Shown here: in pieces, positions 15,473-51,597 of the stretch | Numbering within the stretch: the stretch's first letter is position 1 | Layout: every line of letters begins with the position of its first letter | Assembly: GCA_964587855.1 (NCBI GenBank) | Contig: CAZPLT010000004.1 | Location: 1 to 52,827 of the forward strand | DNA: 52,827 nucleotides | Direction: 5' to 3' | From: an uncultured Muribaculaceae bacterium | GTDB lineage: Bacteria; Pseudomonadota; Alphaproteobacteria; Rs-D84 | Made by a program: the position numbers and the translations under genes | The notes under the pieces: generated by a model | The model's database searches: none | What the model saw: only the letters and a program-made list of their open reading frames with translations | What the model was told of the DNA's origin: nothing

Positions 15473-15546
15473 ATTCTCTCTATGGATAAAGTTTATCATA
15501 AAATATAAAAAAATGAAAGAAAAAATAGTGGTTATTACAATAAAAT

Positions 15547-15571
15547 AAAATCCGCATAACTGCGGATTTTA
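15547..15571 (-). terminator. terminator/attenuator-like hairpin straight after virB10-like stop
   Basis: AAAATCCGCA-GTTA-TGCGGATTTT overlaps the TAA and is followed by ATTTTATT on the minus strand. It could be partial termination within the operon. Confidence 0.5.
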
Positions 15572-17905
15572 TTTTATTGGTGGAAAGCAATCGCCACCGG
15601 AACTGGGGCAACAATTAAATCCTTGTTCTCCCATGTCTGTATAAACTTCGCCGGAACAACATCCGTTTACATCTGGTGCATTTCCGTCTTCGCAAGTTAA
15701 TACTTGATTATTTTCTTCGGCTGGTGCTTTTTCTTTTGCAAATGGATTTTTTATACTTCCATCAGTGTTATATTCCAATCCCAAAACTTGTTCATTATAC
15801 TCTTTCGATCCCTTGGTTAATGCTTGGCCACCAGTACCAACAATTCCGGTCTTTTGTTGATTAGTATATACTGCAGCTTGTTTTGCATTGTTGATTGCCT
15901 GGTATTGTGTTGATTGGCAATACGCTACAACAGTGCGATAATCATAACCATCATCTGCGATGGATTGTGCCGTAACACCCGAAGCCAATTGCCCATTTTG
16001 TCCGCAGTATTTTTGAATATTAAATCCACGAACCTGCCCAATCCACGACGGATCTTTATAATTAACCCAAGGGCCATCAGAAGTTTCGGATGTGCTAATT
16101 GGCGGTGCTTTATGTACAGCATACTCAGATGGTTTTAATTTACAATTTTCCACTCCATTAACTTTGTCACAGAAATTAACAACTAAATCTTTTGGAGAAT
16201 AAACAGTTATACGTGTTCCAGCCGCTATAGAAAATGGAGGAACCGTATTATCCAGCATATCAACCATTAATTTTTGGGCAACTTTATTCCATGTATTAAT
16301 AATTTCATTTTTTGCAAGTTCCGAAGAACGAACCTGACCGCTTTGTGTAACGGTATTATTATCCCAATCAATTTGATTAACAAATTTATCCGATATTGGT
16401 GCAATTAAATTAACTGCTGCGGGTACGACTGCGGTTATCATTGGCATAATAAATTGTTCCATGTAATCGGTGCTTCCGTGTCCGGGAACCCCAACACGAC
16501 CCTGGCTGTCGCCGGCGAACGGTTCATTACCAGCAAAACTGAATTCCACACCATCTGGACGAACAAAGCGATACCATTTAATTTGCATACGCCCAATTGC
16601 CTTATACGGTCCGGGCATTTCGCCAGTTAAATATCCCAACATTAATGTTCCGGTTGGAACAATAATTGTGCGTCCATTATCGGAATAAACATGTCTGTCT
16701 ACGGTTGCTTGGACCGGTAACATTGATTGACGTTCAATTTTTGCATCTGCACGAATTTCATTAACAATTGTTGCGGGTATTGGTTTATATTGGCGTAATA
16801 CAAAAGAACGATCATAAGGGTCAGTGGATACGAATGCATCGCCTGCCTCGGCAGAAGAAGGAATTAAATTACTGGTTGGTTTATATGCAAACGCCGGATT
16901 AATTTCAGACAGACGTTTTGCGCCCCCCGCTGCGTTTGGTAATTCTGCGGCAGCACCAGCTTTTTGATGTGCCATATTTTTTTCGCGAGTTACAGCAGGA
17001 TTTGATAATACCGGCAATTTTGCGCCAGATGATATAAACCCGATACGATCAAAATCAGAACCTATTTTTTTGCTGGGATTTTTAAGATCTGTAATAAATC
17101 CAGTATCTGGATTGTATTCACCAATCGGTTGTGTGCAATTAGTATCAGAAAAAGGATGAAATAAATAGTGTCCAGCTTGGGGGCGAATCCAACCAATTTG
17201 TTTTCCATAAGTATCATATCCACCAAAAGAAAATTCATAACAACGTTCAGAATCTAGTTCGGATGTTGATTTACGTTCTTCTTTACGTTCCGGACCAACA
17301 TGATTTTTCATTGGTGGTGCAATGGTATCAACTGCTTCGGATACAGGATTTATTTCGGCTTTTTGTTCTGCAACAACTTTTGGTTCTTGTTTTACAGGTT
17401 CTGGTGGTTGAACAAATGTGGAAAGAGCAACAGGTATCTCGATTGTTTTTGCCATTTTTGCTTCGGCGCTGGCAGAATAATATTCGATCAAAATTTTAAT
17501 ACCTGTTTGTGTTAAATCAGTTCTGGGTATCCATACTAATTCTGCAGTACATGGAACCTCAGGAGAGATTTCACCCATATTAGTACATGTAGTATTTATG
17601 CTTAACCCGCTAATCGTTTCTGATAATTTTATACTGGGAATTATGGCAGAAGTATTAGGTGTAATTTTAATAGACTGAATAAGTTTTTCCCCTATTTTTG
17701 AATCTAGCCATTCTATTTCAGCCGGATCAGTTGTAATCTCTAGTGCGATTGTTGGGGCTTTTACGGTTTTGTCTTTTTTATTATGACCCAATAATAAAAC
17801 TAATAATACAATCACTACCAAGAATGCGGAAAATAAAACAATCCACAAAACATGCCGTGGCACGTTTTTTTTAATTTCGGAAATAGTTGTTGTTATCGTA
17901 GCCAA
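15569..17905 (-). CDS. virB10: VirB10/TrbI-family T4SS core protein, enlarged (778 aa) with N-proximal extra domain and Cys-rich C-terminal extension
   Basis: N-terminal TM (VLWIVLFSAFLVVIVLLVLLL) and a Pro-rich linker (VQPPEPVKQEPKV). The TrbI/VirB10 barrel region runs from IPATIVNEIRAD to RITVYSPKDLVVNF, via VPTGTLMLGY, WYRFVRPDGVEF and GDSQGRVGVPGH. The only available start is TTG. Confidence 0.8.
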   Translation of the reverse strand: MATITTTISEIKKNVPRHVLWIVLFSAFLVVIVLLVLLLGHNKKDKTVKAPTIALEITTDPAEIEWLDSKIGEKLIQSIKITPNTSAIIPSIKLSETISGLSINTTCTNMGEISPEVPCTAELVWIPRTDLTQTGIKILIEYYSASAEAKMAKTIEIPVALSTFVQPPEPVKQEPKVVAEQKAEINPVSEAVDTIAPPMKNHVGPERKEERKSTSELDSERCYEFSFGGYDTYGKQIGWIRPQAGHYLFHPFSDTNCTQPIGEYNPDTGFITDLKNPSKKIGSDFDRIGFISSGAKLPVLSNPAVTREKNMAHQKAGAAAELPNAAGGAKRLSEINPAFAYKPTSNLIPSSAEAGDAFVSTDPYDRSFVLRQYKPIPATIVNEIRADAKIERQSMLPVQATVDRHVYSDNGRTIIVPTGTLMLGYLTGEMPGPYKAIGRMQIKWYRFVRPDGVEFSFAGNEPFAGDSQGRVGVPGHGSTDYMEQFIMPMITAVVPAAVNLIAPISDKFVNQIDWDNNTVTQSGQVRSSELAKNEIINTWNKVAQKLMVDMLDNTVPPFSIAAGTRITVYSPKDLVVNFCDKVNGVENCKLKPSEYAVHKAPPISTSETSDGPWVNYKDPSWIGQVRGFNIQKYCGQNGQLASGVTAQSIADDGYDYRTVVAYCQSTQYQAINNAKQAAVYTNQQKTGIVGTGGQALTKGSKEYNEQVLGLEYNTDGSIKNPFAKEKAPAEENNQVLTCEDGNAPDVNGCCSGEVYTDMGEQGFNCCPSSGGDCFPPIK

Positions 17906-17953: not shown

Positions 17954-19426
17954 TTATTGCAACCGAACTACGTTACAGCTGGTACCTTGGAATTTGGTCA
18001 AACTGTTGCATAATTTTTCTGCAGTTTCCATATCTGCTATTGGACCAACACGCAAACGATAAAGTCTGGCATTAGCACCCGTTGCACCTAAATCACCGAC
18101 GCCTGCTTCATCGACTGCGAAATAAACCATACCTTTATACGGGGTCAAAAGTCCCTGGCCATCTTCACCACTGAATTTGGACAATAATTTGGTCCAATAA
18201 TCATTAAGTGCTTTGACCGAAGTATCGGATTTAAGTTCCACAGCAATGCCTGCTTGGTTAGATGATATAACCGGTATATCACTTTGTGGTAAGAACGCAC
18301 CAGTTGTGTTACGTGTTGTTGGTAACATGTTAACACCACTTGCTCCACCAGAAGTATCACTGGTTTGCATCGTCATTGGTATTTGGAATCCATTTGAATT
18401 GATGTTTTGTTTGTACGTAACTCCATAATCCATAGACTCATTCCCATAACCTACGTTTTGTAAGGATTGCGTTGATTGTATGCTTTGCATTACATTAGAT
18501 TCTGCCAAAGCCATAACGCTGGAAGTATCTGCAATCAAGAAAGGTTTAGAGCGACGTTTAATACAAACGATTCGTTGACCACTGCGCAGAACCATATCAC
18601 CGACTGCCTCTACAATCAAAAGACGTCCATTTTCACCATCAGTGCGGAAACCGACTGGCGATTCGCCACCTTCAACCAAAATAGAAACAACTGGCCGCTG
18701 GGTCATGGCGATAACTTTGTCGCCAAAGTCAATATAAGTAAAGATTCTGTCGCGCCATACGCGCTCTGGCGCAATTACAAAATCATCTGGATTTGGAACG
18801 AAAATATCCAAATCAAAACGGAATTCAGATGGATCAATTTTCATTGTTTTTATCCAACCATAATCTTCACCATCAACACCAACAGTAGAAGTTTTTGTTT
18901 TGCTGGGGAATATAGAATTCATACCAGATGTTTGACCATTACTGGAAGAAGTTGTTGCGCTGGATAAAGTAGAACGACCATCTAGGACGATATCAACCTG
19001 GGAATATGAGATTTCGCTGGAGTTAGCAGGTTCGCTGCGCAGATAGAATAAATATTTATTTCCAGATTTGCCGGTAACGATTAAATTTGTATCGCTGCCC
19101 TGATTTGTTGCAACTGGCGTCATATAAATTGTCCGACCACCTTTCTGCGGTTCAAACTGGAATAAACCATCGTTTCCGATAACACCATCTTCTATTGCTT
19201 CGCCTTCGGGCAAGTTAATCATAGTAACCATGCCATTACGTAATTTTATTGGTAATACAGTACCTGGGGCCCATGTCAATTGTGCATAGCCAGGTTTAGA
19301 ACTGCCAGTTGCCATGTTTGCTTCTGGATTATCCCATGCATCTTGAACGCCATGATCTTCAGCACTGGCAACGCCAATACAAAGAACAAAGAGCAAAGAA
19401 CAAAGAGCAAATAATTTATTTTTCAT
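17954..19426 (-). CDS. virB9: VirB9/TrbG/CagX-family T4SS core protein fused to a C-terminal SPOR domain
   Basis: Signal peptide. N-domain pattern (VTMINLPEGEAIEDGVIGN...TNLIVTGKSGNKYLFYLRS). C-domain (VIAPERVWRDRIFTYIDFG...PVVSILVEGGESPVGFR). The last 100 aa or so match the SPOR consensus (ARLYRLRVGPIADMETAEKLCNSLTKFQGTSCNVV). Confidence 0.85.
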   Translation of the reverse strand: MKNKLFALCSLLFVLCIGVASAEDHGVQDAWDNPEANMATGSSKPGYAQLTWAPGTVLPIKLRNGMVTMINLPEGEAIEDGVIGNDGLFQFEPQKGGRTIYMTPVATNQGSDTNLIVTGKSGNKYLFYLRSEPANSSEISYSQVDIVLDGRSTLSSATTSSSNGQTSGMNSIFPSKTKTSTVGVDGEDYGWIKTMKIDPSEFRFDLDIFVPNPDDFVIAPERVWRDRIFTYIDFGDKVIAMTQRPVVSILVEGGESPVGFRTDGENGRLLIVEAVGDMVLRSGQRIVCIKRRSKPFLIADTSSVMALAESNVMQSIQSTQSLQNVGYGNESMDYGVTYKQNINSNGFQIPMTMQTSDTSGGASGVNMLPTTRNTTGAFLPQSDIPVISSNQAGIAVELKSDTSVKALNDYWTKLLSKFSGEDGQGLLTPYKGMVYFAVDEAGVGDLGATGANARLYRLRVGPIADMETAEKLCNSLTKFQGTSCNVVRLQ

Positions 19427-19454: not shown

Positions 19455-20117
19455 CTATTGCGCAAATTTTAGAACATTCAGTGGATCTCCATCCCCTGAT
19501 TCTATTCTGTATTCTGAGACTTGTAGTCCCAGAGGATTTTTTTGTTTTGCATTCCATTTTATTTCTGGTGCATAAGTCAAACCTATTACAATAGTAAAAT
19601 CTTTTGGCATAGTTTGTCCAGAGCTTTCTGATGTACAAAACCATCTGAATCGAACCGCAAATTTATCATTTCCGCGTGTTTCTATAACTGGGGATTGAAA
19701 TTCTACTGGACAAGAAAATGCAGGGTCTGGGGAATCATGCATAAATGCTGACCATAATTGTGTTTCGGTAAAGTTGGCATAAATCTCGCGTGAAGACCAA
19801 ATATAAACAGGACCATCAGGACTGCGCCATTTATAGCGCATAACATTGATATTTGGGATTATTTCATTACGTGCACGAATATATTCTTTGATAAAATTTT
19901 CTTTGTAATCAGTCAGGGTTTTATCATTCACAGGTAATGGTTGAATTTCAACCACTTGGGTTTCGGCGCGATGTGAATTTAAAAGAAAAATTTGAGTTTT
20001 GGTTAAAGGGAACATATTTGATACTGCAAAAACAAGGGCTAATGCAGTAGCAATAGCAGCAGCCAAAACAAAAGACATCATACGGGCAGTAAATGTATTA
20101 GGATCCAGTATAGCCAT
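19455..20117 (-). CDS. virB8: VirB8-family T4SS protein (canonical, with NPxG motif)
   Basis: Bitopic, with a short N-terminus and TM MMSFVLAAAIATALALVFAV. About 220 aa, with the hallmark NPLGLQVSEY near the C-terminus. Sits directly upstream of virB9. Confidence 0.8.
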   Translation of the reverse strand: MAILDPNTFTARMMSFVLAAAIATALALVFAVSNMFPLTKTQIFLLNSHRAETQVVEIQPLPVNDKTLTDYKENFIKEYIRARNEIIPNINVMRYKWRSPDGPVYIWSSREIYANFTETQLWSAFMHDSPDPAFSCPVEFQSPVIETRGNDKFAVRFRWFCTSESSGQTMPKDFTIVIGLTYAPEIKWNAKQKNPLGLQVSEYRIESGDGDPLNVLKFAQ

Positions 20118-37677: not shown

Positions 37678-37794
37678 TTATTTCGTTGGGTAATCGCGTG
37701 GGAATTCATTCCCGTTTGGATGTCGCAGTTCTGATTTAACGCCACATGCCGCCAATGTCATAATTAACATTAAAAATAAAATCGTTTTTTTCAT
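37678..37794 (-). CDS. 38-aa lipoprotein, LptM/YifL-like (tentative)
   Basis: Not in the track (<60 aa): MKKTILFLMLIMTLAA|CGVKSELRHPNGNEFPRDYPTK. It has a lipobox followed by CG-x-K, as in small LptM-type lipoproteins. Confidence 0.45.
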   Translation of the reverse strand: MKKTILFLMLIMTLAACGVKSELRHPNGNEFPRDYPTK

Positions 37795-37841
37795 ACCTAG
37801 ATTATGCATTAAAAAATTACAAAAATAAACAAAAATCTCTC

Positions 37842-43462: not shown

Positions 43463-45748
43463 ATGAAAAAAATCATATCTTTGGCTTTTTGCCTTTTACC
43501 TTTTGTTGCGGCGTCTGCTGCGACAATTTTACGTGTTGATGTTACCGGTAACAAACGTATGGACGCCGAATCCGTTCGCTTACTGGCGGATGTTAAAACA
43601 GGTGTAAATATAAATTCCGAGGATATAAATCAAATCGTAAAACGGTTGCAACAATCTGGGTATTTTTCGGCTGTTTCCGCAAAAATGGACGGAAATGTAT
43701 TGAAAATTAATATTACCGAAGCGCCAACAATTGCCCAGGTTACTGTCGAGGGTAACGATGAAATATCAACCGAAGATTTGAAAAAAGAAATCCAGGTAAA
43801 AGAACGCGGAACATTTGATGAAACCGAAATTGGCGCGGATGTTCAAAGATTGTTAACTGTCTATCAGCGCAAGGGTTTTTTTGGTACTCGGGTAAACCCA
43901 CAAAAAATACAGCAAGAAGATGGTCGTGTTAATGTTGTATATGAAATAAAAGAAGGTCATCCAACCTATATTAAAGATATAAAATTCAAGGGTAATGATA
44001 ATTTTTCATCACGCACACTGGGTAAAGAATTATTGTCGCGCGAGCATGCTTGGTGGAAATTTATGGCTCAGTTCGATGTTTATGACGAGGACCGAATTCA
44101 ATATGATGCGCAAATGATACGTCAATTTTATCTGCGCAATGGATATGCAGATGTCCAGGTAAGAATTCAAAATGGTACATTTACTCCTGATCGTGAATAT
44201 TACTCGGTAGTATTTGATGTTCAAGAAGGTAAAAGATATAAATTTGGTGAATTAAAAATAGAAAATCCATTCAAAGATGTTGATGATAAAGATTTGAAAG
44301 ATGTTTTAGAAATGAGAGCAGGCGATATTTATAATGTGGATAAAGTAGATTCAACAATTTCAGCATTACGTGGTGTGGTTGCATTCCAAGGATATTCTTT
44401 TATAAATGTTGATACAATTCCTGAAAAAAATGATACTGATCGTACAATCTCTATGACCTTTAAGATTCAAAAAACGAATCGTATTTATTTAGACAGTATA
44501 AATATACTTGGGAATGTCAGAACTTTTGACAGCGTAATTGAACATCAATTAGATGTTCGCGGGGGGGATCCATTTTCTTTGCAAACTATAGAAGCCGGGC
44601 GTCAAAGAATGATGCGTTCCAGATATTATAAAGATGTTCAAATGGTTCCAACACGCATTTCTGGAACAAACCTGATGAATTTGGATGTAAAAGTAGAAGA
44701 ACAACCCACTGGTGAACTTTCTGGTGGTGTTGGTTGGTCCAGTATTAATGGATTTATGGTTGACGCTGGAATTACCGAAACTAATTTTATGGGTCGTGGT
44801 CAAATGGTTCAATTAAAGGGCAGTATTGCACAATATACCAAACAGGTTTCGTTGGGCTTTACTGAACCTTATTTGTTTGGGCGTGAATTGTCCGGAGGAT
44901 TTGATGTAAATTATACAATGTATAATTATGGCAGCTTGGGCAGCTATGGTTATGATCGTGATAGCCTTTCATTGTCTGGTCGTTTGGGTTGGAAGCTGAC
45001 CGATCATTGGACCCAAATGATGCGTTTGTCTGCAATGTATGATCAAAACTATGATTTACATACGGCCAGCGGTTGGCAACAAGCAAGTTTATATACACTG
45101 GGAACAACTTTTAAATATCAAAATCTGGATACGGATTTTAAACAAAATACGCATACTGGTATAGTTGCAAATCTTGGCGTTGCTTATACAGGTTTCGGAG
45201 TTAGTACAGAGACATTTATGCGTTATAGTGGAGATATTACAGGATTATTAAATTTCTTTGAGAACAGATGGCAATTGAAATCTAGTTTGGAATTTGGTTA
45301 TGCACAGCCACTGGAAGGGGATTATATCAGCCGAGTATATCGTTATTTCTTGGGGGGTGAATCTTTGCGCGGATTCCAAATTGCTGGTATAGGATCACGT
45401 AACTGGGCATATCGTAATTATGCGCTGGGGGGGCTATGGAAAGCAAATGGTAGTACTCAATTAAACTTCCCTGTATTTATACCTGATGAATACCAGGTCA
45501 AAGGATTTGTATTTGCGGATTATGGTGTTGTTGGTAAACCACCAAAAGAAGAATATACATATACATTAAGTGGTACTTCGGTAACCAGTGATAACTTTAT
45601 AGATCAAGATTTGCGAACCAGTGTTGGTGTTGGTGTTTTCTGGAATACACCGATGGGACCTATGAATTTCTCGTGGGGTTGGCCGTTAAAGATAAATGAA
45701 TATGACCGAGAACAAAGATTCTTGTTATCGTTTGAAACTCAGTTTTAA
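43463..45748 (+). CDS. bamA: outer membrane protein assembly factor BamA
   Basis: Signal peptide, POTRA repeats and a C-terminal Omp85 barrel ending in F (FLLSFETQF). Confidence 0.95.
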   Translation: MKKIISLAFCLLPFVAASAATILRVDVTGNKRMDAESVRLLADVKTGVNINSEDINQIVKRLQQSGYFSAVSAKMDGNVLKINITEAPTIAQVTVEGNDEISTEDLKKEIQVKERGTFDETEIGADVQRLLTVYQRKGFFGTRVNPQKIQQEDGRVNVVYEIKEGHPTYIKDIKFKGNDNFSSRTLGKELLSREHAWWKFMAQFDVYDEDRIQYDAQMIRQFYLRNGYADVQVRIQNGTFTPDREYYSVVFDVQEGKRYKFGELKIENPFKDVDDKDLKDVLEMRAGDIYNVDKVDSTISALRGVVAFQGYSFINVDTIPEKNDTDRTISMTFKIQKTNRIYLDSINILGNVRTFDSVIEHQLDVRGGDPFSLQTIEAGRQRMMRSRYYKDVQMVPTRISGTNLMNLDVKVEEQPTGELSGGVGWSSINGFMVDAGITETNFMGRGQMVQLKGSIAQYTKQVSLGFTEPYLFGRELSGGFDVNYTMYNYGSLGSYGYDRDSLSLSGRLGWKLTDHWTQMMRLSAMYDQNYDLHTASGWQQASLYTLGTTFKYQNLDTDFKQNTHTGIVANLGVAYTGFGVSTETFMRYSGDITGLLNFFENRWQLKSSLEFGYAQPLEGDYISRVYRYFLGGESLRGFQIAGIGSRNWAYRNYALGGLWKANGSTQLNFPVFIPDEYQVKGFVFADYGVVGKPPKEEYTYTLSGTSVTSDNFIDQDLRTSVGVGVFWNTPMGPMNFSWGWPLKINEYDREQRFLLSFETQF

Positions 45749-46233
45749 TTGTTTCTGCAAGAACGTAAATTATAGTTTATAATTTCTTGTTTTGCAGCAT
45801 TTAACATATTTTGTTCAGCTAAGTTTAAGTTTGCCATGGATAATATACCAATAATTTTTTCAGCTGATTTTACATTGTTTTCACTGGGGATAATCGGATG
45901 ATTTTCAGGCTGTGGTACTTCTGGGCCTTTAATATCTTTTATCTTGTCAAAACATAAAGAAAACAATTCTATTTCCTCTGGGGTTTTTGGTCCACCGCTT
46001 TCTATTATTTTTATAAAAAAGTCCATATAATTTTCATATTTTTTCATAAAAACCTTATGCTTTCTGGTAAAAGAATGTATTATTTTGGTCGCTATTGCTA
46101 GATCTTTTTTTATAGGACGAGTTCTTGTAAAGTAATTATATGAAATTGCATTATCTTGTTTAGCAATAGAAAGCCACGCTTTCAGCATTGAAGGAAATAA
46201 TTTACCATTAAAAAAATATGGTTTTTTTGACAT
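45745..46233 (-). CDS. hypothetical protein (AT-rich, cytoplasmic)
   Basis: Long ORF convergent with bamA (4-nt overlap). No signal peptide and no family recognised. Confidence 0.5.
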   Translation of the reverse strand: MSKKPYFFNGKLFPSMLKAWLSIAKQDNAISYNYFTRTRPIKKDLAIATKIIHSFTRKHKVFMKKYENYMDFFIKIIESGGPKTPEEIELFSLCFDKIKDIKGPEVPQPENHPIIPSENNVKSAEKIIGILSMANLNLAEQNMLNAAKQEIINYNLRSCRNN

Positions 46234-46310: not shown

Positions 46311-46340
46311 TTGACGCAATGCTTAGAAATTCACTATAAT
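46311..46340 (+). promoter_or_regulatory. sigma70-like promoter (TTGACG-18-TATAAT)
   Basis: Hexamers read directly, 25 nt before RBS AAAGGTGGG and ATG 46366. Confidence 0.5.
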
Positions 46341-46365
46341 TTTTATAAAAGAAAAAGGTGGGAAA

Positions 46366-46512
46366 ATGAAAAAAATTCTTTTGGGCTTATTGGTAGTTTT
46401 TGCGTTGGCCGGGTGCGGACAGGTTTATGATCGTGAACCCGTTGGTGTCGGATTTGATAACAACGAATTAAAATTGTCCCCTTGCGCGTGTATGCAGGTT
46501 TATAGGGCATAA
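46366..46512 (+). CDS. 48-aa lipoprotein, VirB7-like candidate
   Basis: Not in the track (<60 aa): MKKILLGLLVVFALAG|CGQVYDREPVGVGFDNNELKLSPCACMQVYRA. It has a lipobox and a strong RBS. It sits immediately upstream of two VirB8-like genes and has free Cys in the mature part. Confidence 0.55.
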   Translation: MKKILLGLLVVFALAGCGQVYDREPVGVGFDNNELKLSPCACMQVYRA

Positions 46513-46528
46513 CAGATAAGATAACATC

Positions 46529-47212
46529 ATGGATTTTCCGGCAGATTATGATACAAGAATGTTCCCGGAGACACGCTATCTTTCAATGGCGCGGATGTTT
46601 GCTATTTGGTCTGCAGTATTATTTTTTTTAATAGTAGGGCTTTCTTGGACTTTGGTTTGGACCATGCGTGCCAGTCGAACTGAACCTGTTTTATTTTCAA
46701 TATCTGATGATGGAACAACTTGGACAGCTATTATTGGTGGGGATACACGTTTAAAATATTCTGCTATGCGTGTTATGCAAGAATCAGTGGTTGTAAATTT
46801 CACACAGCTTTGGTTTAAAATTTCTAACGATGCAAAAGAAAACGAAGAAAATTGGTGCAAATGTGATCCTGCAAAATGTTGGAGTAATGAATTAGCCCCA
46901 GTGAGATGTAATATTTGTTGTGCATCTGGCGAAAGTTTATTTACCAATTTTTCAGAAGTTGTAAACAATGATTTTCGTGTACGTGCGACAGCTGGTGAAG
47001 AATGGTCAGTAATTCCAGAAACAATTCATGCAGTACCAGTTGGTGTAATTTCAGACAAGGGTGGGCTTTGGTCTTTAACTGCAAGCATTAATATGGGTGG
47101 CGGTAAAATACAAAATATAGAAGCATATGCTAAAATAACGAAATCAGAGCAAGGTTATCCTGCAACTTTGAGATATTATGTTGAAGATTTCAATGCATAT
47201 CCGGCGGAATAA
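46529..47212 (+). CDS. VirB8-like bitopic membrane protein, divergent (no NPxG)
   Basis: Cytoplasmic N-terminus, one TM (MFAIWSAVLFFLIVGLSWTLVW) and a periplasmic part of about 180 aa. C-terminal GYPATLRYYVEDF aligns with ADPATILRFRVLEV of the next gene and with KNPLGLQVSEYRIE of the canonical VirB8 at 19455..20117. Confidence 0.5.
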   Translation: MDFPADYDTRMFPETRYLSMARMFAIWSAVLFFLIVGLSWTLVWTMRASRTEPVLFSISDDGTTWTAIIGGDTRLKYSAMRVMQESVVVNFTQLWFKISNDAKENEENWCKCDPAKCWSNELAPVRCNICCASGESLFTNFSEVVNNDFRVRATAGEEWSVIPETIHAVPVGVISDKGGLWSLTASINMGGGKIQNIEAYAKITKSEQGYPATLRYYVEDFNAYPAE

Positions 47213-47862
47213 TGAAAAAATTAACGATATTTTTATTTGGAAGTTTTTTACTGGTTATCGCGGCTGGTCTGGCAATTATTGGTGCAAAGATTTTTGATGT
47301 CAGTCGTAACTTTTCCGTAAATTCGGTTATATTTCAACCTGCAGATTTATCCAGGGATAGAATTGAAAAACCTTTACCACTGCATGTTTTATCAGATGAT
47401 TTTATACGCGACAATTTGATAAAAAAATTTGTTTATGAATATTTTTATATAGTTCCAGATTCTGGCAATATAAAAAAACGCAGAATGCCGCGCAGTACTC
47501 TGGCAGAGATGTCAAGCGAATCAGTATTTAATCAGTGGAATAACGATTTCGCAAAAGATATGGAAAAGCAAGCAGATGAAAATGTTATGCGGCGTGTATT
47601 TGTAAAAAGCATCGTTCTGCCGCCCAGCAGTGAATATTTTCAAATAACTTATGATTTGCTGACATGGAATATTGCAAACGATATTAAGGCTGCACCGCAA
47701 ATTCAAAAAAACAAAACAATGTCTATTAGATTGAATTTTGAAAAAATGGTGAAACAAAAACAAGCAAATGGAATAAATTTCGATGTAAAAAAGTATTTGT
47801 CGAATGGTGCAGATCCTGCTACGATTCTAAGGTTCAGAGTATTAGAAGTCATAGTTAAATAA
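47212..47862 (+). CDS. VirB8-like bitopic membrane protein, divergent (no NPxG)
   Basis: N-terminal TM. LPLHVLSDDFIRDNLIKKFVYEYFYI parallels LPVNDKTLTDYKENFIKEYIRARNEI of the canonical VirB8. TAATG overlap with the upstream gene. Confidence 0.55.
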   Translation: MKKLTIFLFGSFLLVIAAGLAIIGAKIFDVSRNFSVNSVIFQPADLSRDRIEKPLPLHVLSDDFIRDNLIKKFVYEYFYIVPDSGNIKKRRMPRSTLAEMSSESVFNQWNNDFAKDMEKQADENVMRRVFVKSIVLPPSSEYFQITYDLLTWNIANDIKAAPQIQKNKTMSIRLNFEKMVKQKQANGINFDVKKYLSNGADPATILRFRVLEVIVK

Positions 47863-47872
47863 GGAAAAATAA

Positions 47873-48739
47873 GTGAAAAAAAATAAAAAGTCTTTTTTAT
47901 ATAAATCGATAAAGCTTTCACTAGCAGTTTGTTTTATGCTTTTTCATATTTTTGCTGTATCAACTTTTTATAATACAGCGTGGGCGGACGAAGAAAAAGA
48001 TCCATTTATTATTGATGCAGAAATGGGCACAGATTCTAAATTACCGAATGCAACAATTTCTGACCCAGAGCCTGTTGAATTTGACAGTACTCCATTGGTA
48101 TTGAACGATGGTGCCGGGTATTATGCTATTTCTAATTTTGATATTTCTGGAATTTATTTGGGTATGCCATTTGAAGATGTTCAAACTTTATTTTTCAAAA
48201 AACAGTCTTTATATGTTCCACGTAAAAAAAATTCCATAATTTTTACTTTGACCAGTGATTGGCGTGTAAATCTAGATTATGAATGTACCCAACAGGGAAT
48301 ATATGTTCCGTCTGAACTGGAAAAATGCATCTTGTCTGCTGCTCGTAAACGTGGATTATTATATCCAGCAGAATTACATTTGGTACGTGAATCAACCGGG
48401 GAAACCATAGATATTTATTTTACAAGCAATGCGACCGAGAATGTTGTTTGGCGTGTTGTTTATAAAAATGATGTTAATGATATGCCAGGATCTGCGGAAA
48501 AATATTCTCAGCAACGTGATAATAAAATAATAGTATTTTGGCAGGAAGTTGTTGGAAAATATGGTCAGCCAAACAGTGGCAATGATAAATGGGTATCCAG
48601 TAATAATTCGTTTGACCCGATGTTAACGGCATATTATGGAATGCTGGAATTAACAGCCCAAGGAATAATGGCAACAGATACGGCCAAGAACGCTTCTGAT
48701 GCACGTGAAAATTTCCGGGCAAAACCTTATGCTTTCTAA
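47873..48739 (+). CDS. exported/membrane-anchored hypothetical protein (288 aa)
   Basis: GTG start after RBS AAGGAAA. N-terminal hydrophobic segment LSLAVCFMLFHIFAVSTF. No family recognised. Same operon-like string as the VirB8-like genes. Confidence 0.6.
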   Translation: MKKNKKSFLYKSIKLSLAVCFMLFHIFAVSTFYNTAWADEEKDPFIIDAEMGTDSKLPNATISDPEPVEFDSTPLVLNDGAGYYAISNFDISGIYLGMPFEDVQTLFFKKQSLYVPRKKNSIIFTLTSDWRVNLDYECTQQGIYVPSELEKCILSAARKRGLLYPAELHLVRESTGETIDIYFTSNATENVVWRVVYKNDVNDMPGSAEKYSQQRDNKIIVFWQEVVGKYGQPNSGNDKWVSSNNSFDPMLTAYYGMLELTAQGIMATDTAKNASDARENFRAKPYAF

Positions 48740-49079
48740 AAATACTTATCAGGCTGGTCTTTTTGCAGAATTTTTAGCGCGTATTTATTTACGCATTCAT
48801 GGATTCAAAATTTTAAAATCCAGATATATAACTGGAAAGTATACCAAGCGCGCAGAAATAGATATAATCGCACGACGTGGAAATTTGGTTGTTTTTATAG
48901 AGGTTAAAAACAGACCGGATATTCGCACAGCATTTGATGCAATTGGTCATACTCAGGCATTAAGATTAAGACGTGCTGCCGAGACATGGATTGTAAAAAA
49001 TCGTTGGAATGGGGACGCCAGATTTGATGTAATTGTTGTGACCGGCTTGCATGTTAAATGGTTCAAAAACGGGATATAA
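48729..49079 (+). CDS. yraN: YraN-family (UPF0102) endonuclease-like protein
   Basis: YQAGLFAEFLARIYLRIHGFKILKSRY...EIDIIARRGNLVVFIEVKNR is the typical YraN core. Confidence 0.8.
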   Translation: MLSKNTYQAGLFAEFLARIYLRIHGFKILKSRYITGKYTKRAEIDIIARRGNLVVFIEVKNRPDIRTAFDAIGHTQALRLRRAAETWIVKNRWNGDARFDVIVVTGLHVKWFKNGI

Positions 49080-49604: not shown

Positions 49605-49754
49605 ATGAAAAAAGCAATATTATTGGGCTTTGCAGTTTTAACATTGGCTGCTTGCACTGGTTCTTATAAATCTGGAAATTGTCAGTATGATTTCTTGCTG
49701 CATAAAGATATTTCTATTTCCAAAATTATTGGTAACGCAACTGGCGGATGCTAA
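49605..49754 (+). CDS. 49-aa cysteine-containing lipoprotein
   Basis: Not in the track: MKKAILLGFAVLTLAA|CTGSYKSGNCQYDFLLHKDISISKIIGNATGGC. RBS AAGGAG, a lipobox and a terminator directly after. Confidence 0.5.
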   Translation: MKKAILLGFAVLTLAACTGSYKSGNCQYDFLLHKDISISKIIGNATGGC

Positions 49755-49769: not shown

Positions 49770-49795
49770 ACGCGGCGTTTGCCGCGTTTTATTTT
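49770..49795. terminator. bidirectional terminator
   Basis: ACGCGGC-GTTT-GCCGCGT followed by TTTTATTTT. It overlaps the 3' end of the convergent minus-strand ORF. Confidence 0.65.
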
Positions 49796-50049
49796 ATAAC
49801 TGCTGATTTTATCAGCGACAAATCTTCTTTTATTCCATCTATCTTTAATTGTAATTGTCCAATACCAGATTCCAAAATGGTGGTTCTGTTTTCAAGCGCG
49901 GTTATTCGTGCATCAGATTTTTTAATATCGTCTATATCCGAAGATTGTCGGGCTGCCCACCAAATTACTCCACCAATAAAAGCCAATAAAAACCAACTGC
50001 TGCGCAGAGTTTCCATTATTCCATTTTTATCCATTTTTACCCCGTTCAA
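49789..50049 (-). CDS. small membrane protein with C-terminal coiled coil (phage-associated; holin/spanin-like guess)
   Basis: One TM (WFLLAFIGGVIWWAA) followed by a heptad-like region. Lies in the phage-derived block. The start is uncertain (50049, 50034 or 50016). Confidence 0.5.
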   Translation of the reverse strand: MNGVKMDKNGIMETLRSSWFLLAFIGGVIWWAARQSSDIDDIKKSDARITALENRTTILESGIGQLQLKIDGIKEDLSLIKSAVIK

Positions 50050-50224
50050 TTAAAGTTTCAATTTGATGTACCAATGCTCGCCCGGCTTCCAAAGAGCGCA
50101 ATTCTGCATCGGTTGCATTTGGTCCTAAAAATCGTTCGATGGTTATATTGCGCAAGTGCATCAAAACACGTGCGCCATCATTTGTGCAAAAAGCTCGCGC
50201 AAAAGATTTTTCTATGTCTTTCAT
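50027..50224 (-). CDS. small phage-associated protein (Bbp19-like, tentative)
   Basis: FCTNDGARVLMHLRN...ELRSLEAGRALVHQIETLI resembles, from memory, a small domain common in alphaproteobacterial prophages. Weak call. Confidence 0.4.
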   Translation of the reverse strand: MKDIEKSFARAFCTNDGARVLMHLRNITIERFLGPNATDAELRSLEAGRALVHQIETLIERGKNG

Positions 50225-50254
50225 TTTTATTTCCTTTTGTGATAGAATTTATTT

Positions 50255-50644
50255 ATGAAAAAATTATTTTTAGTTTTTCCGATTCTTTGCGCATGTGTAG
50301 AAACACAACCAATCCTTACTAATAATTCTAATTTTATTGGGGATTGGTATTTGAACAAAGATAGTAATAATTATGATGGAAAAATGATTATAAAAAATTG
50401 CAATGAATCGCAGTGTGAATTTAACATGCATTCATCAAAAAATAATCATACTTGCGATGCGGACGGAATTATGAAATTTTCTGACGATGACAAAGCCCAG
50501 TATTATTTTAAGTATTTTGATGCAAGTATTATATTTTCACTAACGCCAGATAAAAATATGAATGTGCATTATGGTAATACACATTCATATTCTGCATTTT
50601 GCGGAATGAATGCAACGATAGAAGGAGTTTGGATGAAAGATTAA
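50255..50644 (+). CDS. AT-rich putative lipoprotein, unknown function
   Basis: MKKLFLVFPILCA|C lipobox-like start and several Cys. No family recognised. Confidence 0.5.
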   Translation: MKKLFLVFPILCACVETQPILTNNSNFIGDWYLNKDSNNYDGKMIIKNCNESQCEFNMHSSKNNHTCDADGIMKFSDDDKAQYYFKYFDASIIFSLTPDKNMNVHYGNTHSYSAFCGMNATIEGVWMKD

Positions 50645-50674
50645 TATTTCATAGTTCTGCTGGTCCATCCATTT

Positions 50675-51070
50675 TTATTTTCTTTTAAAGTAAAACTTGC
50701 ATCCATCTAAGTTTTGATACAGGGTGTCTGGTAATATAAAATAAAAACTTTCTATAACTTTTTTATCTTTTTTTATAGTCAATTTATATTCTTCGTTGTA
50801 TTTAATTTCTTTCATGTTAATAATAACATTATCAGTTTCTATCATAGAATGATTTATATTATTTATTTTACAAAATTTATCTAAAGTAAGTTTTAACACA
50901 GAATTTGTATATAACTTTTCAGCGGTATTTTCGCAATCTGTCGTAATATATCCATCATATTCAAATTTATCAAAATACCATTTCCCGCAAAATTCACATG
51001 GCTGACTTGTTTTTTTTACGCAACCAGTTAGGGCAAAAAATATCAATAATAATAAAAATAATTTTTTCAT
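50675..51070 (-). CDS. AT-rich lipoprotein co-translated with the lysozyme gene
   Basis: MKKLFLLLLIFFALTG|C lipobox. Its start overlaps the lysozyme stop (ATGA). Confidence 0.6.
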   Translation of the reverse strand: MKKLFLLLLIFFALTGCVKKTSQPCEFCGKWYFDKFEYDGYITTDCENTAEKLYTNSVLKLTLDKFCKINNINHSMIETDNVIINMKEIKYNEEYKLTIKKDKKVIESFYFILPDTLYQNLDGCKFYFKRK

Positions 51071-51567
51071 CTTTTTATTTTATATATTCCATATTCAAAT
51101 ATATTCCAATCATCTTTTCTGCGATTAACAAGCCCATAATTTGTTTCTATTTTTTTTGTTTTCGGATTATATGTTTTATTAAATGCTTTGAATGCGGATT
51201 CCATATTTGGGTAATTTTCACTTATAAAATCGTCATTATTTAAATATAGTAATAATGTAGAATTTGAAAAATTACTCTCTCCGACATTGTATATGAAAGA
51301 TGCTAATGCGTCAAATTGTTTCTGAGTCAAATTCCTGGTTACAAGTTTTTTAATAACGTTTTCTACTTTATTTAAATCTTTTTCAAATAATCTTATAGAT
51401 TCAGGTTTTGAAATTGAATTAAAGTTTTCTCCATTTTTTATAACATGTCCATATCCAATGGTCATTTTTCCTGTTCCATCATCATACGGTTTGGGTTCAA
51501 AACGTTCATACTGTCTTATATATTTTTGCCCTTTACTGCTGGTATGCATATTTTTTGGATTTTGCAT
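51067..51567 (-). CDS. phage-type lysozyme (glycoside hydrolase family 24)
   Basis: IRQYERFEPKPYDDGTGKMTIGYGH (E...D...T triad spacing), FDALASFIYNVG and VNRRKDDWNIF are the typical GH24 endolysin pattern. Confidence 0.85.
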   Translation of the reverse strand: MQNPKNMHTSSKGQKYIRQYERFEPKPYDDGTGKMTIGYGHVIKNGENFNSISKPESIRLFEKDLNKVENVIKKLVTRNLTQKQFDALASFIYNVGESNFSNSTLLLYLNNDDFISENYPNMESAFKAFNKTYNPKTKKIETNYGLVNRRKDDWNIFEYGIYKIKR

Positions 51568-51597
51568 TTTTTCTTCTCTTTTTGTAAATATATTTTT

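What the first reader, a model, noticed from the sequence alone, without database searches (positions are those of the whole stretch)
46311..48739. Second T4SS-like module: VirB7-like mini-lipoprotein, two divergent VirB8 paralogues lacking NPxG, and an unknown exported protein
A strong promoter (TTGACG-18-TATAAT) and RBS precede a 48-aa lipoprotein with free cysteines (..LKLSPCACMQVYRA). Two adjacent bitopic proteins of VirB8 size and topology follow. They resemble each other at the C-terminus (GYPATLRYYVEDF / ADPATILRFRVLEV) and align there with the canonical VirB8 at 19455-20117 (KNPLGLQVSEYRIE). The second also shares the LP-x-...-[FL]IK-[EK]-[YF] helix with the canonical copy. Both lack the NPxG hallmark. 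A GTG-started 288-aa exported protein of unknown family completes the string. Duplicated VirB8 genes, one atypical, and scattered vir islands are hallmarks of Rickettsiales rvh systems. A third VirB8-like copy and this particular lipoprotein are not something I recognise. In Agrobacterium, VirB7 disulfide-bonds to VirB9. The VirB9 here has a lone Cys in its C-domain (QRIVCIKRR) that could pair with the lipoprotein.
Basis: partly seen in the sequence, partly recalled or inferred. Interest (0 to 1): 0.62.

Follow-up and report, generated by a model that had tools for sequence, protein, structure and literature searches.

The report
Detached VirB7/VirB8 type IV secretion operon
A four-gene operon kept by a whole order of tiny-genome gut and wastewater bacteria encodes a VirB7-type lipoprotein, two extra and very diverged copies of the secretion-channel protein VirB8, and one unknown exported protein, so it is most likely the detached half of an unusual type IV secretion machine.

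Summary
Promoter, ribosome-binding site and four tightly packed genes are at the stated coordinates. Both bitopic proteins belong to the VirB8 family. Their AlphaFold2 models match VirB8, TraE and TrwG structures. 66 of 76 P227 orthologues and 15 of 76 P216 orthologues hit Pfam VirB8. The two families match each other (hhalign E 2e-8), and P216 matches the resident canonical VirB8 (E 3e-6).

The 48-aa lipoprotein is a VirB7 homologue. Its only plasmid relatives, four of four, are small lipoprotein genes directly upstream of virB8 in complete VirB2-to-VirD4 clusters. They share the motif N-x-[LM]-K-x-[ST]-P-C-A-C. Their VirB9 proteins share the invariant odd cysteine of the VirB9 encoded here.

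The organism belongs to order Rs-D84 (Candidatus Enterousia and relatives; genomes under 1 Mb, thought partner-dependent), not to a named Rickettsiales. The operon, with its own conserved promoter, is intact in 79 of 88 related loci. A virB8-virB9-virB10 island is likewise conserved.

The 288-aa protein belongs to an unnamed alphaproteobacterial family that stands alone elsewhere, so its link to secretion is unproven. No VirB4, VirB11 or VirD4 gene was seen, and whole genomes could not be scanned. Verdict: a new variant of a known kind, of moderate interest.

The parts
46311..46340 (+). Sigma-70-type promoter, TTGACG-18-TATAAT
   Evidence: It matches 11 of 12 positions. CTTGAC-N18-TATAAT is conserved at the same distance from the start codon in 17 of 17 Rs-D84 loci inspected, often directly after the bamA stop codon.
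46355..46362 (+). Ribosome-binding site AAGGTGGG
   Evidence: Read from the sequence. It is conserved as AAGGTGGG or AAGGAG in relatives.
46366..46512 (+). VirB7-family mini-lipoprotein: 48-aa precursor, 32-aa mature peptide CGQVYDREPVGVGFDNNELKLSPCACMQVYRA
   Evidence: It has a lipobox (Pfam LPAM_1). The first 26 mature residues are near-invariant in 78 loci, and variants occur in 3 more. Homologues sit directly upstream of virB8 in 4 of 4 plasmid T4SS clusters.
46529..47212 (+). P227: divergent VirB8 paralogue with a conserved cytoplasmic tail (FPADYDT..FPE.R), one TM helix, a Cys-rich insert (C110/112/117/127/130/131) and YPAT in place of NPxG
   Evidence: Pfam VirB8 scores E 0.011 for the window copy, and 66 of 76 orthologues hit it at E <= 0.01, best 3.6e-10. 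The AF2 model has pLDDT 74 and matches VirB8-family structures by Foldseek. The N-terminus matches Erythrobacter plasmid VirB8.
47212..47862 (+). P216: second divergent VirB8 paralogue with almost no cytoplasmic tail, no cysteine and no NPxG
   Evidence: BLASTP against the window VirB8 gives E 0.001 over 166 aa. The AF2 model has pLDDT 71.5, and its top 25 Foldseek matches are all VirB8-family, best E 4.4e-6. 15 of 76 orthologues hit Pfam VirB8. hhalign gives E 2.9e-6 against the lineage's canonical VirB8 and E 2.1e-8 against the P227 family.
47873..48739 (+). P288: exported protein of an unnamed alphaproteobacterial family with an invariant Cys pair (C138, C152) and an invariant C-terminus ENF+AKPY[AS]F
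   Evidence: It is 52-83% identical across Rs-D84. It has no Pfam, NCBIfam or PDB match and is not related to VirB8, VirB9 or VirB10 by hhalign. Remote relatives stand alone in other lineages.
48699..49079 (+). yraN (UPF0102). It overlaps the end of P288 and is probably co-transcribed here, but it is not a constant member of the operon.
   Evidence: Pfam UPF0102 at 1.3e-17. It lies downstream of the P288 gene in 31 of 88 loci.
19455..20117 (-). Canonical virB8 (has NPLG): first gene of the partner island
   Evidence: Pfam VirB8 at 1.4e-14. It is conserved next to nusG across Rs-D84. No lipoprotein gene lies upstream of it.
17954..19426 (-). virB9 with a C-terminal SPOR domain. Its C-domain is near-invariant and carries an odd invariant Cys288.
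   Evidence: Pfam CagX at 3.6e-21 plus SPOR. C288 is present in 17 of 17 orthologues. The same cysteine and the same SPOR-like end occur in the plasmid VirB9 proteins that accompany the homologous lipoprotein.
15569..17905 (-). virB10 (778 aa, 14 conserved cysteines)
   Evidence: Pfam TrbI at 7.4e-18. Orthologues occur in 32 metagenome loci.
43463..45748 (+). bamA, the usual upstream neighbour. This is context, not part of the operon.
   Evidence: In relatives the corresponding gene hits Omp85 and POTRA. It lies directly upstream on the same strand in 68 of 73 loci and is displaced in at least 5.

Best explanation
The string is a single operon with its own conserved sigma-70 promoter. It encodes the VirB7 and VirB8 end of a chromosomal, vertically inherited VirB-type (P-type) type IV secretion apparatus of the reduced-genome alphaproteobacterial order Rs-D84. 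The other half is the virB8-virB9(SPOR)-virB10 island, 26 kb away in this window.

Proposed mechanism. The family memberships are shown; the interactions are inferred.

1. The 32-residue lipoprotein is lipidated at Cys17 and sits in the inner leaflet of the outer membrane. It binds the near-invariant C-terminal domain of VirB9 as VirB7, TraN and TrwH do. One of its two conserved cysteines (SPC-A-C) probably forms a disulfide with the odd, invariant VirB9 Cys288, as VirB7 Cys24 does with VirB9 Cys262 in Agrobacterium.
2. P227 and P216 arose by duplication of the single virB8 found in the related plasmid systems. Together with the canonical VirB8 they form the VirB8 layer (the periplasmic 'arches' and inner-membrane collar) as a mixed assembly.
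3. P227 keeps the ancestral cytoplasmic tail, which could contact the inner-membrane complex. P216 has lost the tail. Both have lost the NPxG dimer motif, as the divergent RvhB8-II of Rickettsiales has.
4. P288 is a periplasmic protein recruited from a more widespread alphaproteobacterial family. Its role in the machine is open.
For: Operon:
- Median intergenic gaps are 28, 0 and 9 bp across 88 loci.
- There is no plus-strand terminator inside the string.
- The promoter is conserved in 17 of 17 loci inspected.
- Weak metatranscriptome contigs span the lipoprotein/P227 and P227/P216 junctions.

VirB8 membership:
- Foldseek matches to VirB8-family structures.
- Pfam VirB8 in 66 of 76 P227 orthologues and 15 of 76 P216 orthologues.
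- hhalign between the two families gives 95% probability, E 2.1e-8.
- The P216 family against the canonical VirB8 gives E 2.9e-6 over 203 columns.
- All three Rs-D84 VirB8 profiles hit the single VirB8 of the plasmid clusters.

VirB7 membership:
- tblastn of the lipoprotein against 72,556 plasmids returned only two places, both directly upstream of virB8 in VirB2-to-VirD4 clusters.
- Two further plasmids have the same gene at the same place.
- The shared motif is [PA][VI]G[VI]G-x3-N-x-[LM]K-x-[ST]PCA[CQ].
- The canonical island has no virB7 of its own.

Partner:
- The VirB9 C-domain is about 95% conserved, and C288 is invariant and unpaired.
- The same cysteine is present in the VirB9 of the three plasmids whose VirB9 I read (Erythrobacter, Microvirga, Magnetospira).

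Co-occurrence:
- Both islands are on the window and on contig Ga0123353_10001706.
- The operon is intact in 79 of 88 loci.
- The P288 gene, its most conserved member, was found in 294 species genomes.
- virB8-9-10 is conserved next to nusG across the lineage.

Precedents from the literature:
- The VirB7-VirB9 disulfide, the P[ILV]NK motif and the degenerate XPxX motif of the divergent Rickettsia VirB8 (PMC2653234).
- Divergent RvhB8-II (PMC4676284).
Against: - No VirB2, B3, B4, B5, B6, B11 or D4 homologue is present in the 52.8-kb window or in the 1.9 Mb of Rs-D84 sequence around the two islands that I hold. Whole genomes could not be scanned, so a working secretion machine is not demonstrated.
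- The window's own P227 is below the Pfam threshold (16.1 versus 23.2 bits), and P216 has no Pfam hit.
- Profiles of both families find no VirB8 among PDB sequences.
- The classical VirB7 motif P[ILV]NK is not met (PVGV).
- The resemblance YDREPV / FNREPV to TrwH is weak (shuffle p = 0.02) and is absent for TraN.
- The individual tblastn E-values of the lipoprotein hits are poor (0.1 and 3). Their weight comes from the genomic position.
- The AF2 models are of moderate confidence (pLDDT 74 and 71.5).
- P288 has no T4SS relative or T4SS context outside Rs-D84.
- No interaction was computed or measured.
Confidence: 0.7

Rival explanations
1. The VirB7, VirB8, VirB9 and VirB10 proteins of Rs-D84 no longer form a substrate-translocating T4SS. 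They form a pared-down envelope-spanning scaffold without the usual ATPases. The scaffold would be exapted for attachment to, or exchange with, a partner cell, or for DNA uptake as in the ComB system. The extra VirB8 copies and P288 would be lineage-specific parts of that structure.
For: - Only virB7, virB8 (three copies), virB9 and virB10 were seen, always in housekeeping surroundings.
- Genomes are under 1 Mb and the lifestyle is predicted to be partner-dependent (PMC12306168).
- VirB9 carries a peptidoglycan-binding SPOR domain.
- P288 comes from a non-T4SS family.
Against: - Absence of the ATPases is not shown, because only two neighbourhoods per genome were examined.
- The closest relatives of these genes lie in complete conjugation-type clusters with VirB4, VirB11 and VirD4.
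- Scattered vir islands are normal in Rickettsiales, which do have the ATPases (PMC2653234).
Confidence: 0.15
2. The operon is an outer-membrane biogenesis module that works with BamA. The lipoprotein and P288 would be BAM accessory factors, and the VirB8-fold proteins would be inner-membrane tethers.
For: - bamA lies directly upstream on the same strand in 68 of 73 loci.
- In several loci the promoter follows the bamA stop codon immediately.
- P288 and 55 of 92 long family members end in aromatic-x-Phe, like outer-membrane proteins.
- One remote P288 relative lies between lptFG-like and asmA genes.
Against: - The lipoprotein's only relatives outside the lineage are VirB7-position genes of T4SS clusters.
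- The two bitopic proteins are VirB8-family members.
- There is no similarity to any Bam, Lpt or Tam family in Pfam or NCBIfam.
- bamA has moved away in at least 5 loci while the operon stays intact, and an opposite-strand gene or a gap of about 1.1 kb separates them in many loci, including the window.
- The operon has its own promoter.
Confidence: 0.07
3. The string is a decaying remnant of an integrated conjugative element or plasmid T4SS and has no present function.
For: - The nearest relatives of the lipoprotein, VirB8 and VirB9 are plasmid-borne.
- Only a subset of vir genes was seen.
Against: - The four genes are intact in 79 of 88 loci of an order-level clade with genomes of about 0.9 Mb.
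- The mature lipoprotein is near-invariant.
- P288 is 52-83% identical across the clade.
- The promoter is conserved.
- There are no frameshifts, and no relaxase or integrase alongside.
Confidence: 0.03

Closest known systems
VirB7 lipoproteins of P-type T4SS: A. tumefaciens VirB7, pKM101 TraN, R388 TrwH (PDB 7o3j chain C, 3jqo, 2ofq)
   Same: - Small lipoprotein: 47-48-aa precursor and a mature peptide of about 31-33 residues (30-45 residues is the norm according to PMC3093366).
- The gene lies directly upstream of a virB8 gene.
- A Pro-Val core follows an acidic or Arg-Glu stretch (YDREPV versus TrwH FNREPV).
- Free cysteine(s), together with an odd cysteine in the VirB9 C-domain, as in the Agrobacterium VirB7-VirB9 disulfide (PMC2653234).
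   Different: - P[ILV]NK is replaced by PVGVG.
- A second conserved block, N-x-LK-x-SPCAC, is absent from TraN and TrwH.
- There is no match to any curated VirB7 or LvhB7 model.
- The gene is separated from virB9 and virB10 by 26 kb.
Unnamed VirB7-position lipoproteins of alphaproteobacterial plasmid T4SS: Erythrobacter aureus YH-07 plasmid, Sphingosinicella sp. BN140058 p1, Microvirga sp. VF16 pMVF16-3, Magnetospira sp. QH-2 plasmid
   Same: - Lipobox, [PA][VI]G[VI]G, and N-x-[LM]K-x-[ST]PCA[CQ].
- In the three plasmids whose VirB9 I read (Erythrobacter, Microvirga, Magnetospira), VirB9 carries the same C-domain cysteine. Erythrobacter and Microvirga VirB9 also have the SPOR-like C-terminal end with a Cys pair.
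- Erythrobacter VirB8 shares P227's cytoplasmic tail: YPADYDT..LPERR..ARM.
   Different: - Those systems are plasmid-borne and contiguous (VirB2 to VirD4), and have a single VirB8 with NPxG.
- Their lipoproteins have longer, variable C-terminal tails.
- They have no P288-like gene.
VirB8 family (PF04335): Brucella VirB8, pKM101 TraE, R388 TrwG, H. pylori CagV
   Same: - Bitopic, with a single N-terminal TM helix, then helices and a four-stranded sheet.
- Foldseek TM-score 0.57-0.73 on the targets.
- Profile-level homology.
   Different: - NPxG is lost (YPAT in P227; none or DPAT in P216).
- P227 has a Cys-rich insert of about 25 residues and three extra strands before helix 1.
- P216 has no cytoplasmic tail.
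- Identity to solved VirB8 structures is 7-19%.
Divergent VirB8 paralogue RvhB8-II of the Rickettsiales rvh T4SS (PDB 4o3v)
   Same: - A canonical and a fast-evolving VirB8 are co-resident in one reduced genome.
- The NPxG motif is degenerate (XPxX).
- The vir islands are scattered (PMC2653234; PMC4676284).
- 4o3v is among P227's structural matches.
   Different: - There are three paralogues here rather than two.
- The two divergent ones are adjacent and share an operon with virB7. In Rickettsia each virB8 is followed by a virB9.
- No duplicated virB9 was seen.
- The lineage is GTDB Rs-D84.
- No specific sequence affinity to RvhB8-II was detected.
- The 2015 study reported such paralogues as unknown outside Rickettsiales.
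Legionella DotI/DotJ (IcmL/IcmM), in the gene order icmN-icmM-icmL-icmK
   Same: - Two adjacent VirB8-family paralogues, one lacking a part of the other, are preceded by a lipoprotein gene and followed by an exported protein gene. The gene order and the DotI-DotJ complex are from my own knowledge.
- IcmL-like and DotI structures are among the fold matches.
   Different: - There is no sequence relation to the Dot/Icm proteins.
- The partners here are VirB9 and VirB10 of P-type.
- P288 shows no relation to DotH or VirB9.

Membership tests
VirB8 (PF04335) | Bitopic inner-membrane protein of about 220-240 aa with a short cytoplasmic N-terminus and one TM helix | tested here: met
   AF2 models give helix 14-48 in P227 and helix 2-30 in P216, followed by a soluble domain. 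Lengths are 227 and 216 aa. Topology was inferred from the model and the hydrophobic segment, not from a dedicated predictor.
VirB8 (PF04335) | NTF2-like periplasmic domain: helices packed on a curved four-stranded sheet | tested here: met
   Foldseek against the PDB. For P216 the top 25 matches are all VirB8, TraE, TrwG or CagV, best E 4.4e-6, TM 0.73. P227 matches IcmL-like, CagV, TrwG, RvhB8-II and VirB8 at E 1e-3 to 2e-2, TM up to 0.71.
VirB8 (PF04335) | Sequence match to the family profile at the curated threshold | tested here: inconclusive
   For the window copies, P227 scores 16.1 bits against a cut-off of 23.2 and P216 has no hit. At family level, 66 of 76 and 15 of 76 orthologues match at E <= 0.01, best 3.6e-10 and 8.5e-9. 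Profile-profile links are E 2.1e-8 and 2.9e-6.
VirB8 (PF04335) | NPxG motif before strand beta-4 (the dimer interface) | tested here: not met
   P227 has YPAT. P216 has NGIN or DPAT, depending on the register. About 10% of VirB8 proteins, and all RvhB8-II, also lack the motif (PMC4676284). Its absence therefore marks a divergent subgroup and does not exclude membership.
VirB7 | Small outer-membrane lipoprotein with a lipobox and a mature peptide of about 30-45 residues | tested here: met
   LAGC lipobox, Pfam LPAM_1 at E 4.4e-4. The mature peptide has 32 residues. The size norm comes from PMC3093366.
VirB7 | Gene directly upstream of virB8 in a T4SS cluster, with homologues in that position in complete systems | tested here: met
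   In the window it lies 17 bp upstream of P227. Four of four plasmid homologues sit immediately upstream of virB8 in clusters that also contain virB9, virB10 and virB11. VirB2, VirB3, VirB4 and/or VirD4 are also annotated or detected in the three clusters whose flanks reached that far.
VirB7 | P[ILV]NK motif that docks on the VirB9 C-terminal domain | tested here: not met
   The sequence is E-P-V-G-V, so only P-V is kept. Similarity to TrwH FNREPVNK has shuffle p = 0.02, and there is none to TraN.
VirB7 | Physical binding, or a disulfide, to VirB9 | not testable with these tools
   The evidence is indirect. An odd cysteine is invariant in the VirB9 C-domain (17 of 17) and is also present in the three plasmid VirB9 proteins I read that accompany the homologous lipoprotein.
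Functional type IV secretion system | VirB4-type ATPase, plus VirB6 and VirB3 and usually VirB11 and VirD4, encoded in the genome | not tested
   None is in the window or in 1.9 Mb of flanks of the two islands. Whole Rs-D84 genomes could not be read with the tools available.
VirB9 / CagX (proposed identity of the 288-aa protein) | Sequence or profile similarity to VirB9 | tested here: not met
   No CagX hit in 24 members at E <= 0.1. hhalign against the lineage's VirB9 gives probability 0.3%. The fold was not tested.
BAM complex accessory lipoproteins (BamB-F) | Similarity to a Bam family | tested here: not met
   No Bam family appears in Pfam or NCBIfam for any of the four proteins. Adjacency to bamA is common but not universal.

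The most novel reading that the evidence does not exclude
Rs-D84 bacteria, which have genomes of about 0.9 Mb and no known means of taking metabolites from a partner, keep a remodelled VirB machine as their core interaction organelle. In it, three specialised VirB8 paralogues occupy the three non-equivalent positions of the VirB8 'arch' protomer, which is a homotrimer of TrwG in the R388 structure (PDB 7q1v). A near-invariant PCAC lipoprotein staples the VirB9 ring by disulfides. A recruited periplasmic protein, P288, is a new structural subunit. This would be the first T4SS with an obligate hetero-oligomeric VirB8 layer, and the second lineage after Rickettsiales with divergent co-expressed VirB8 paralogues.
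Probability: 0.2. Interest if true: 0.8.

Novelty: new variant of a known kind. Interest (0 to 1): 0.55.

Why it matters
Divergent VirB8 paralogues living in one genome were reported as a peculiarity of the Rickettsiales rvh system and 'unknown in other T4SSs' (PMC4676284). Here a different, uncultured order has three VirB8 genes. Two have lost the NPxG dimer motif and sit in an operon with VirB7. This gives an independent case for asking what VirB8 diversification is for.

The work also defines a previously unnamed VirB7 subfamily with the motif N-x-LK-x-SPCAC. This subfamily is co-conserved with a cysteine in VirB9 and links the Rs-D84 chromosomal genes to a small group of alphaproteobacterial plasmid T4SSs.

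Rs-D84 (Candidatus Enterousia and relatives) is common in animal and human guts and in wastewater. It has lost most biosynthesis and is thought to live off other cells, yet no interaction machinery has been described for it. A conserved VirB-type apparatus is an obvious candidate.

Tried and rejected
- Sequence searches of the PDB with profiles of either VirB8-like family found no VirB8 (shallow alignments; 76-sequence alignments). Only fold and Pfam-level evidence links them.
- The lipoprotein alone found nothing in the PDB.
- P288 gave nothing in Pfam, NCBIfam or PDB profile searches, nothing by hhalign against VirB8, VirB9 or VirB10, and nothing by tblastn against plasmids. Its remote relatives carry no domain or name.
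- tblastn of P216 against plasmids found no hit.
- The first, shallow profile comparison of the two families was insignificant (E 0.058). It became significant only with 76 orthologues each.
- Extending the window through contig look-up returned only short contigs.
- A search for VirB2, B3, B4, B5, B6, B11 and D4 in all held Rs-D84 loci found nothing, but those loci cover only two neighbourhoods.
- RNA evidence is limited to one metatranscriptome with a few low-depth contigs, which may include DNA.
- No supplement is held for the Rs-D84 genome paper.
- I considered the idea that the operon is transcribed with bamA and rejected it, because of the conserved own promoter and the intervening opposite-strand gene.

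Full report
**What is in the sequence**

- TTGACG-18-TATAAT lies at 46311-46340 and matches 11 of 12 positions. Promoter-like sites are no commoner in this AT-rich stretch than in shuffles (18 found, 18.2 expected), so the match alone proves little.
- The same CTTGAC-N18-TATAAT, at the same distance from the start codon, is present in all 17 related loci I inspected. These span relatives whose proteins are only about 35% identical, which is a phylogenetic footprint.
- There is no plus-strand terminator inside the string.
- Across 88 related loci the median gaps between the four genes are 28, 0 and 9 bp, so this is one operon.
- One metatranscriptome holds short, low-depth contigs that cross the lipoprotein/P227 and P227/P216 junctions. 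This is weak support only.

**Whose genome it is**

- Close homologues of P227 and P216 are few (13 clusters each) and all come from uncultured Alphaproteobacteria.
- The 288-aa protein (P288) is much better conserved. Relatives were found in 294 species-level genomes, many labelled Candidatus Enterousia.
- Enterousia belongs to GTDB order Rs-D84. All its members have reduced genomes, mostly under 1 Mb, lack most biosynthesis, and are predicted to depend on other cells (PMC12306168).
- The window's own organism occurs in bioreactor and wastewater metagenomes.
- I found no paper that mentions a secretion system in this lineage.

**The two bitopic proteins are VirB8-family members**

Structure:
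- AlphaFold2 models built on the orthologue alignments have pLDDT 74 (P227) and 71.5 (P216). Both show an N-terminal TM helix, then helices and a four-stranded sheet.
- For P216, the 25 best Foldseek matches in the PDB are all VirB8, TraE, TrwG or CagV (best E 4.4e-6, TM 0.73 on the target).
- For P227, the best matches are Tim44, an IcmL-like protein, CagV, TrwG, R. typhi RvhB8-II and Brucella and Agrobacterium VirB8 (E 8e-4 to 2e-2, TM up to 0.71).

Sequence:
- The window copies are marginal. P227 scores E 0.011 against Pfam VirB8, below the cut-off. P216 against the window's canonical VirB8 gives BLASTP E 0.001.
- I therefore extracted orthologues from 76 loci. 66 of 76 P227 orthologues and 15 of 76 P216 orthologues hit Pfam VirB8 (best 3.6e-10 and 8.5e-9).
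- The two families match each other by hhalign (95%, E 2.1e-8).
- The P216 family matches the lineage's canonical VirB8 over 203 columns (E 2.9e-6). P227 against the canonical VirB8 is weak (E 0.011).
- Neither protein has NPxG. P227 has YPAT. P216 has NGIN or DPAT, depending on which of two registers is right.
- A degenerate XPxX motif is exactly what marks the divergent VirB8 of Rickettsia (PMC2653234; PMC4676284).

**The lipoprotein is a VirB7 homologue**

- The first 26 residues of the mature peptide, CGQ[VI]YDREPVG[VI]G[YF]D[NT][ND]ELKLSPCAC, are almost invariant in 78 loci. Three more loci carry variants (YNREPV, YDADPV, YDKEPV). My search pattern fixed some positions, but the free positions are equally constant.
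- It is the most conserved product of the operon. Identity to the window copy is 26-78% for P227 and P216 orthologues and 52-83% for P288.
- It matches no curated family beyond the lipobox and nothing in the PDB.
- tblastn against 72,556 plasmids gave only two weak places (E 0.1 and 3). Both are small unnamed lipoprotein genes immediately upstream of virB8, in clusters that run from virB2, virB3 and virB4 to virB9, virB10, virB11 and virD4 (Microvirga pMVF16-3 and the Magnetospira QH-2 plasmid).
- An Erythrobacter aureus plasmid came up because its VirB8 matches the N-terminus of P227. It has the same gene at the same place. A search with that protein added a fourth case, unannotated, in Sphingosinicella p1.
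- The shared pattern is lipobox, [PA][VI]G[VI]G, then N-x-[LM]K-x-[ST]PCA[CQ].
- Four hits out of four in the VirB7 position cannot be chance, whatever the individual E-values.
- The classical P[ILV]NK motif is not kept. The resemblance YDREPV / FNREPV to R388 TrwH is only suggestive (p = 0.02).

**The partner island, and the cysteine**

- The window carries virB8 (with NPLG), virB9 (CagX plus a C-terminal SPOR domain) and virB10 at 15.6-20.1 kb on the minus strand.
- This trio lies next to nusG throughout the lineage and is flanked by housekeeping genes.
- It has no lipoprotein gene of its own, so the operon studied here supplies the only VirB7 candidate.
- The VirB9 C-domain is nearly invariant. 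Cys288 (RIVCIK) is present in 17 of 17 orthologues and has no partner inside VirB9, because the two other mature-protein cysteines sit together in the SPOR domain.
- The three plasmid VirB9 proteins I read that accompany the homologous lipoprotein have the same cysteine (KFVCIKQR, RLVCLRLA, KHLCIEYT). Two of them also have the same SPOR-like end.
- The Magnetospira lipoprotein keeps only the first cysteine of C-A-C. If a disulfide forms, it probably involves that first one.
- This parallels the Agrobacterium VirB7 Cys24-VirB9 Cys262 bond (PMC2653234). It is an inference, not a test.

**Origin of the three VirB8 genes**

- The plasmid clusters have one VirB8, and it is hit by all three Rs-D84 profiles. 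Scores against the Erythrobacter, Microvirga and Magnetospira proteins are: canonical 38.6, 75.6 and 45.0 bits; P227 family 43.6, 19.8 and 8.8 bits; P216 family about 21 bits for the first two, with no significant match to Magnetospira.
- P227 has kept the cytoplasmic tail of the Erythrobacter VirB8 (FPADYDTRMFPETRY..MARMFAI versus YPADYDTDALPERR..FARMMAV). It has gained a Cys-rich insert: six cysteines invariant among close relatives, four nearly invariant across 76 orthologues.
- P216 has no tail and no cysteine.
- The simplest history is an ancestral virB7-virB8-virB9-virB10 operon in which virB8 was duplicated twice and the operon then split.

**The 288-aa protein**

- It has a signal peptide, an invariant Cys pair and an invariant C-terminus ENF+AKPY[AS]F.
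- An exhaustive profile search found 144 clusters at 50% identity. The more distant ones are 320-520 aa, with a long acidic or Pro-rich linker before the same domain. 55 of 92 long members end in aromatic-x-Phe.
- None has a Pfam domain or a name.
- In four such genomes the gene stands alone, with no VirB8-like or VirB7-like neighbour. One copy lies between lptFG-like and asmA genes.
- It is not related to VirB8, VirB9 or VirB10 and is absent from plasmids.
- It therefore belongs to an older alphaproteobacterial periplasmic family and was joined to the operon in Rs-D84. Whether it is a subunit of the machine is open.

**The bamA neighbourhood**

- bamA is directly upstream on the same strand in 68 of 73 loci. 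In 5 loci it has moved to the other side, and in several it is not within 8 kb, while the operon stays intact.
- In the window a 162-aa opposite-strand ORF lies between them. In many loci the gap is about 1.1 kb.
- Together with the operon's own promoter and the T4SS ancestry of three of the four genes, this makes a BAM-related function unlikely, though not excluded for P288.

**What remains unknown**

- I saw no VirB2, B3, B4, B5, B6, B11 or D4 in the window or in the 1.9 Mb of flanks held. I could not read whole genomes.
- Scattered islands are normal for Rickettsiales, which do have these genes, so absence nearby says little.
- The interaction claims are inferences from homology, conservation and cysteine bookkeeping. 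They cover lipoprotein with VirB9, a mixed VirB8 layer, and P288 as a subunit.

**Verdict**

- This is a new variant of a known kind: a split, chromosomal P-type T4SS gene set with three VirB8 paralogues and a previously unnamed VirB7 subfamily, fixed in an uncultured reduced-genome order.
- Interest is moderate (0.55). It would rise if the VirB8 layer proves hetero-oligomeric, or if the apparatus proves to be the lineage's means of exploiting partner cells.

Noticed in passing
window 49789-52827 (minus strand); also L001, L003, L005: Phage-type genes lie just downstream of the operon: Bbp19-like at 50027-50224, lysozyme at 51067-51567 and a portal (Head-tail_con, E 1.7e-82) at 51598-52827. 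Portal, T7-type terminase and T7-capsid-like genes sit at the same chromosomal place, beside dnaB, in relatives of the window organism. This could be a domesticated podovirus-like element or gene-transfer-agent-like cluster rather than a recent prophage.
   Followed up: partly
window 1804-3792, 3793-6138 (plus strand); 13625-15499, 12915-13625 (minus strand): These are large secreted, Cys-rich proteins with Ser/Thr/Ala-rich N-terminal regions and no Pfam hit. The first two share a motif (C..YY.CMD..C....N..+RCAC..R), so they are paralogues. The 624-aa and 236-aa proteins lie directly downstream of virB10, but only in close relatives. They are candidate surface proteins or substrates.
   Followed up: partly
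window 17954-19426 (minus strand): VirB9 carries a C-terminal SPOR (peptidoglycan-binding) domain with a conserved Cys pair. The same C-terminal end is seen in VirB9 of the Erythrobacter and Microvirga plasmids. This is an unusual way of anchoring a T4SS core complex to the cell wall.
   Followed up: partly
window 15569-17905 (minus strand): VirB10 is long (778 aa) and has 14 cysteines, 12 invariant in all 23 sequences and 2 in 21 of 23. This suggests extensive periplasmic disulfide bonding in this apparatus.
   Followed up: no
window 45745-46233 (minus strand): A 162-aa ORF with no family match is wedged between bamA and the operon promoter, and its end overlaps the bamA stop codon. Close relatives lack it. 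About 16 more distant loci have a gap of roughly 1.1 kb at this place, and in L005 that gap holds a 305-aa opposite-strand gene.
   Followed up: no
window 49605-49754 (plus strand) and 37678-37809 (minus strand): There are two further mini-lipoproteins. One is a DUF4223 member (E 1.4e-12) that follows yraN in several relatives. The other is a 43-aa LptM-like lipoprotein (E 1.1e-3, below the cut-off).
   Followed up: partly
window 7747-8205 and 8160-8879 (plus strand): A pilin-like protein with an N-terminal methylation motif lies next to an OmpA-domain lipoprotein. skp (OmpH), lpxD and probably fabZ follow at 8.9-11.9 kb, detached from bamA, which they usually follow in Proteobacteria.
   Followed up: no
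L126 63-1256; L128 1-878: In the Microvirga and Erythrobacter plasmids a DnaB-like helicase gene directly precedes virB2 of the related T4SS cluster. In Rs-D84 a dnaB gene lies a few kb from the operon. This may be coincidence.
   Followed up: no
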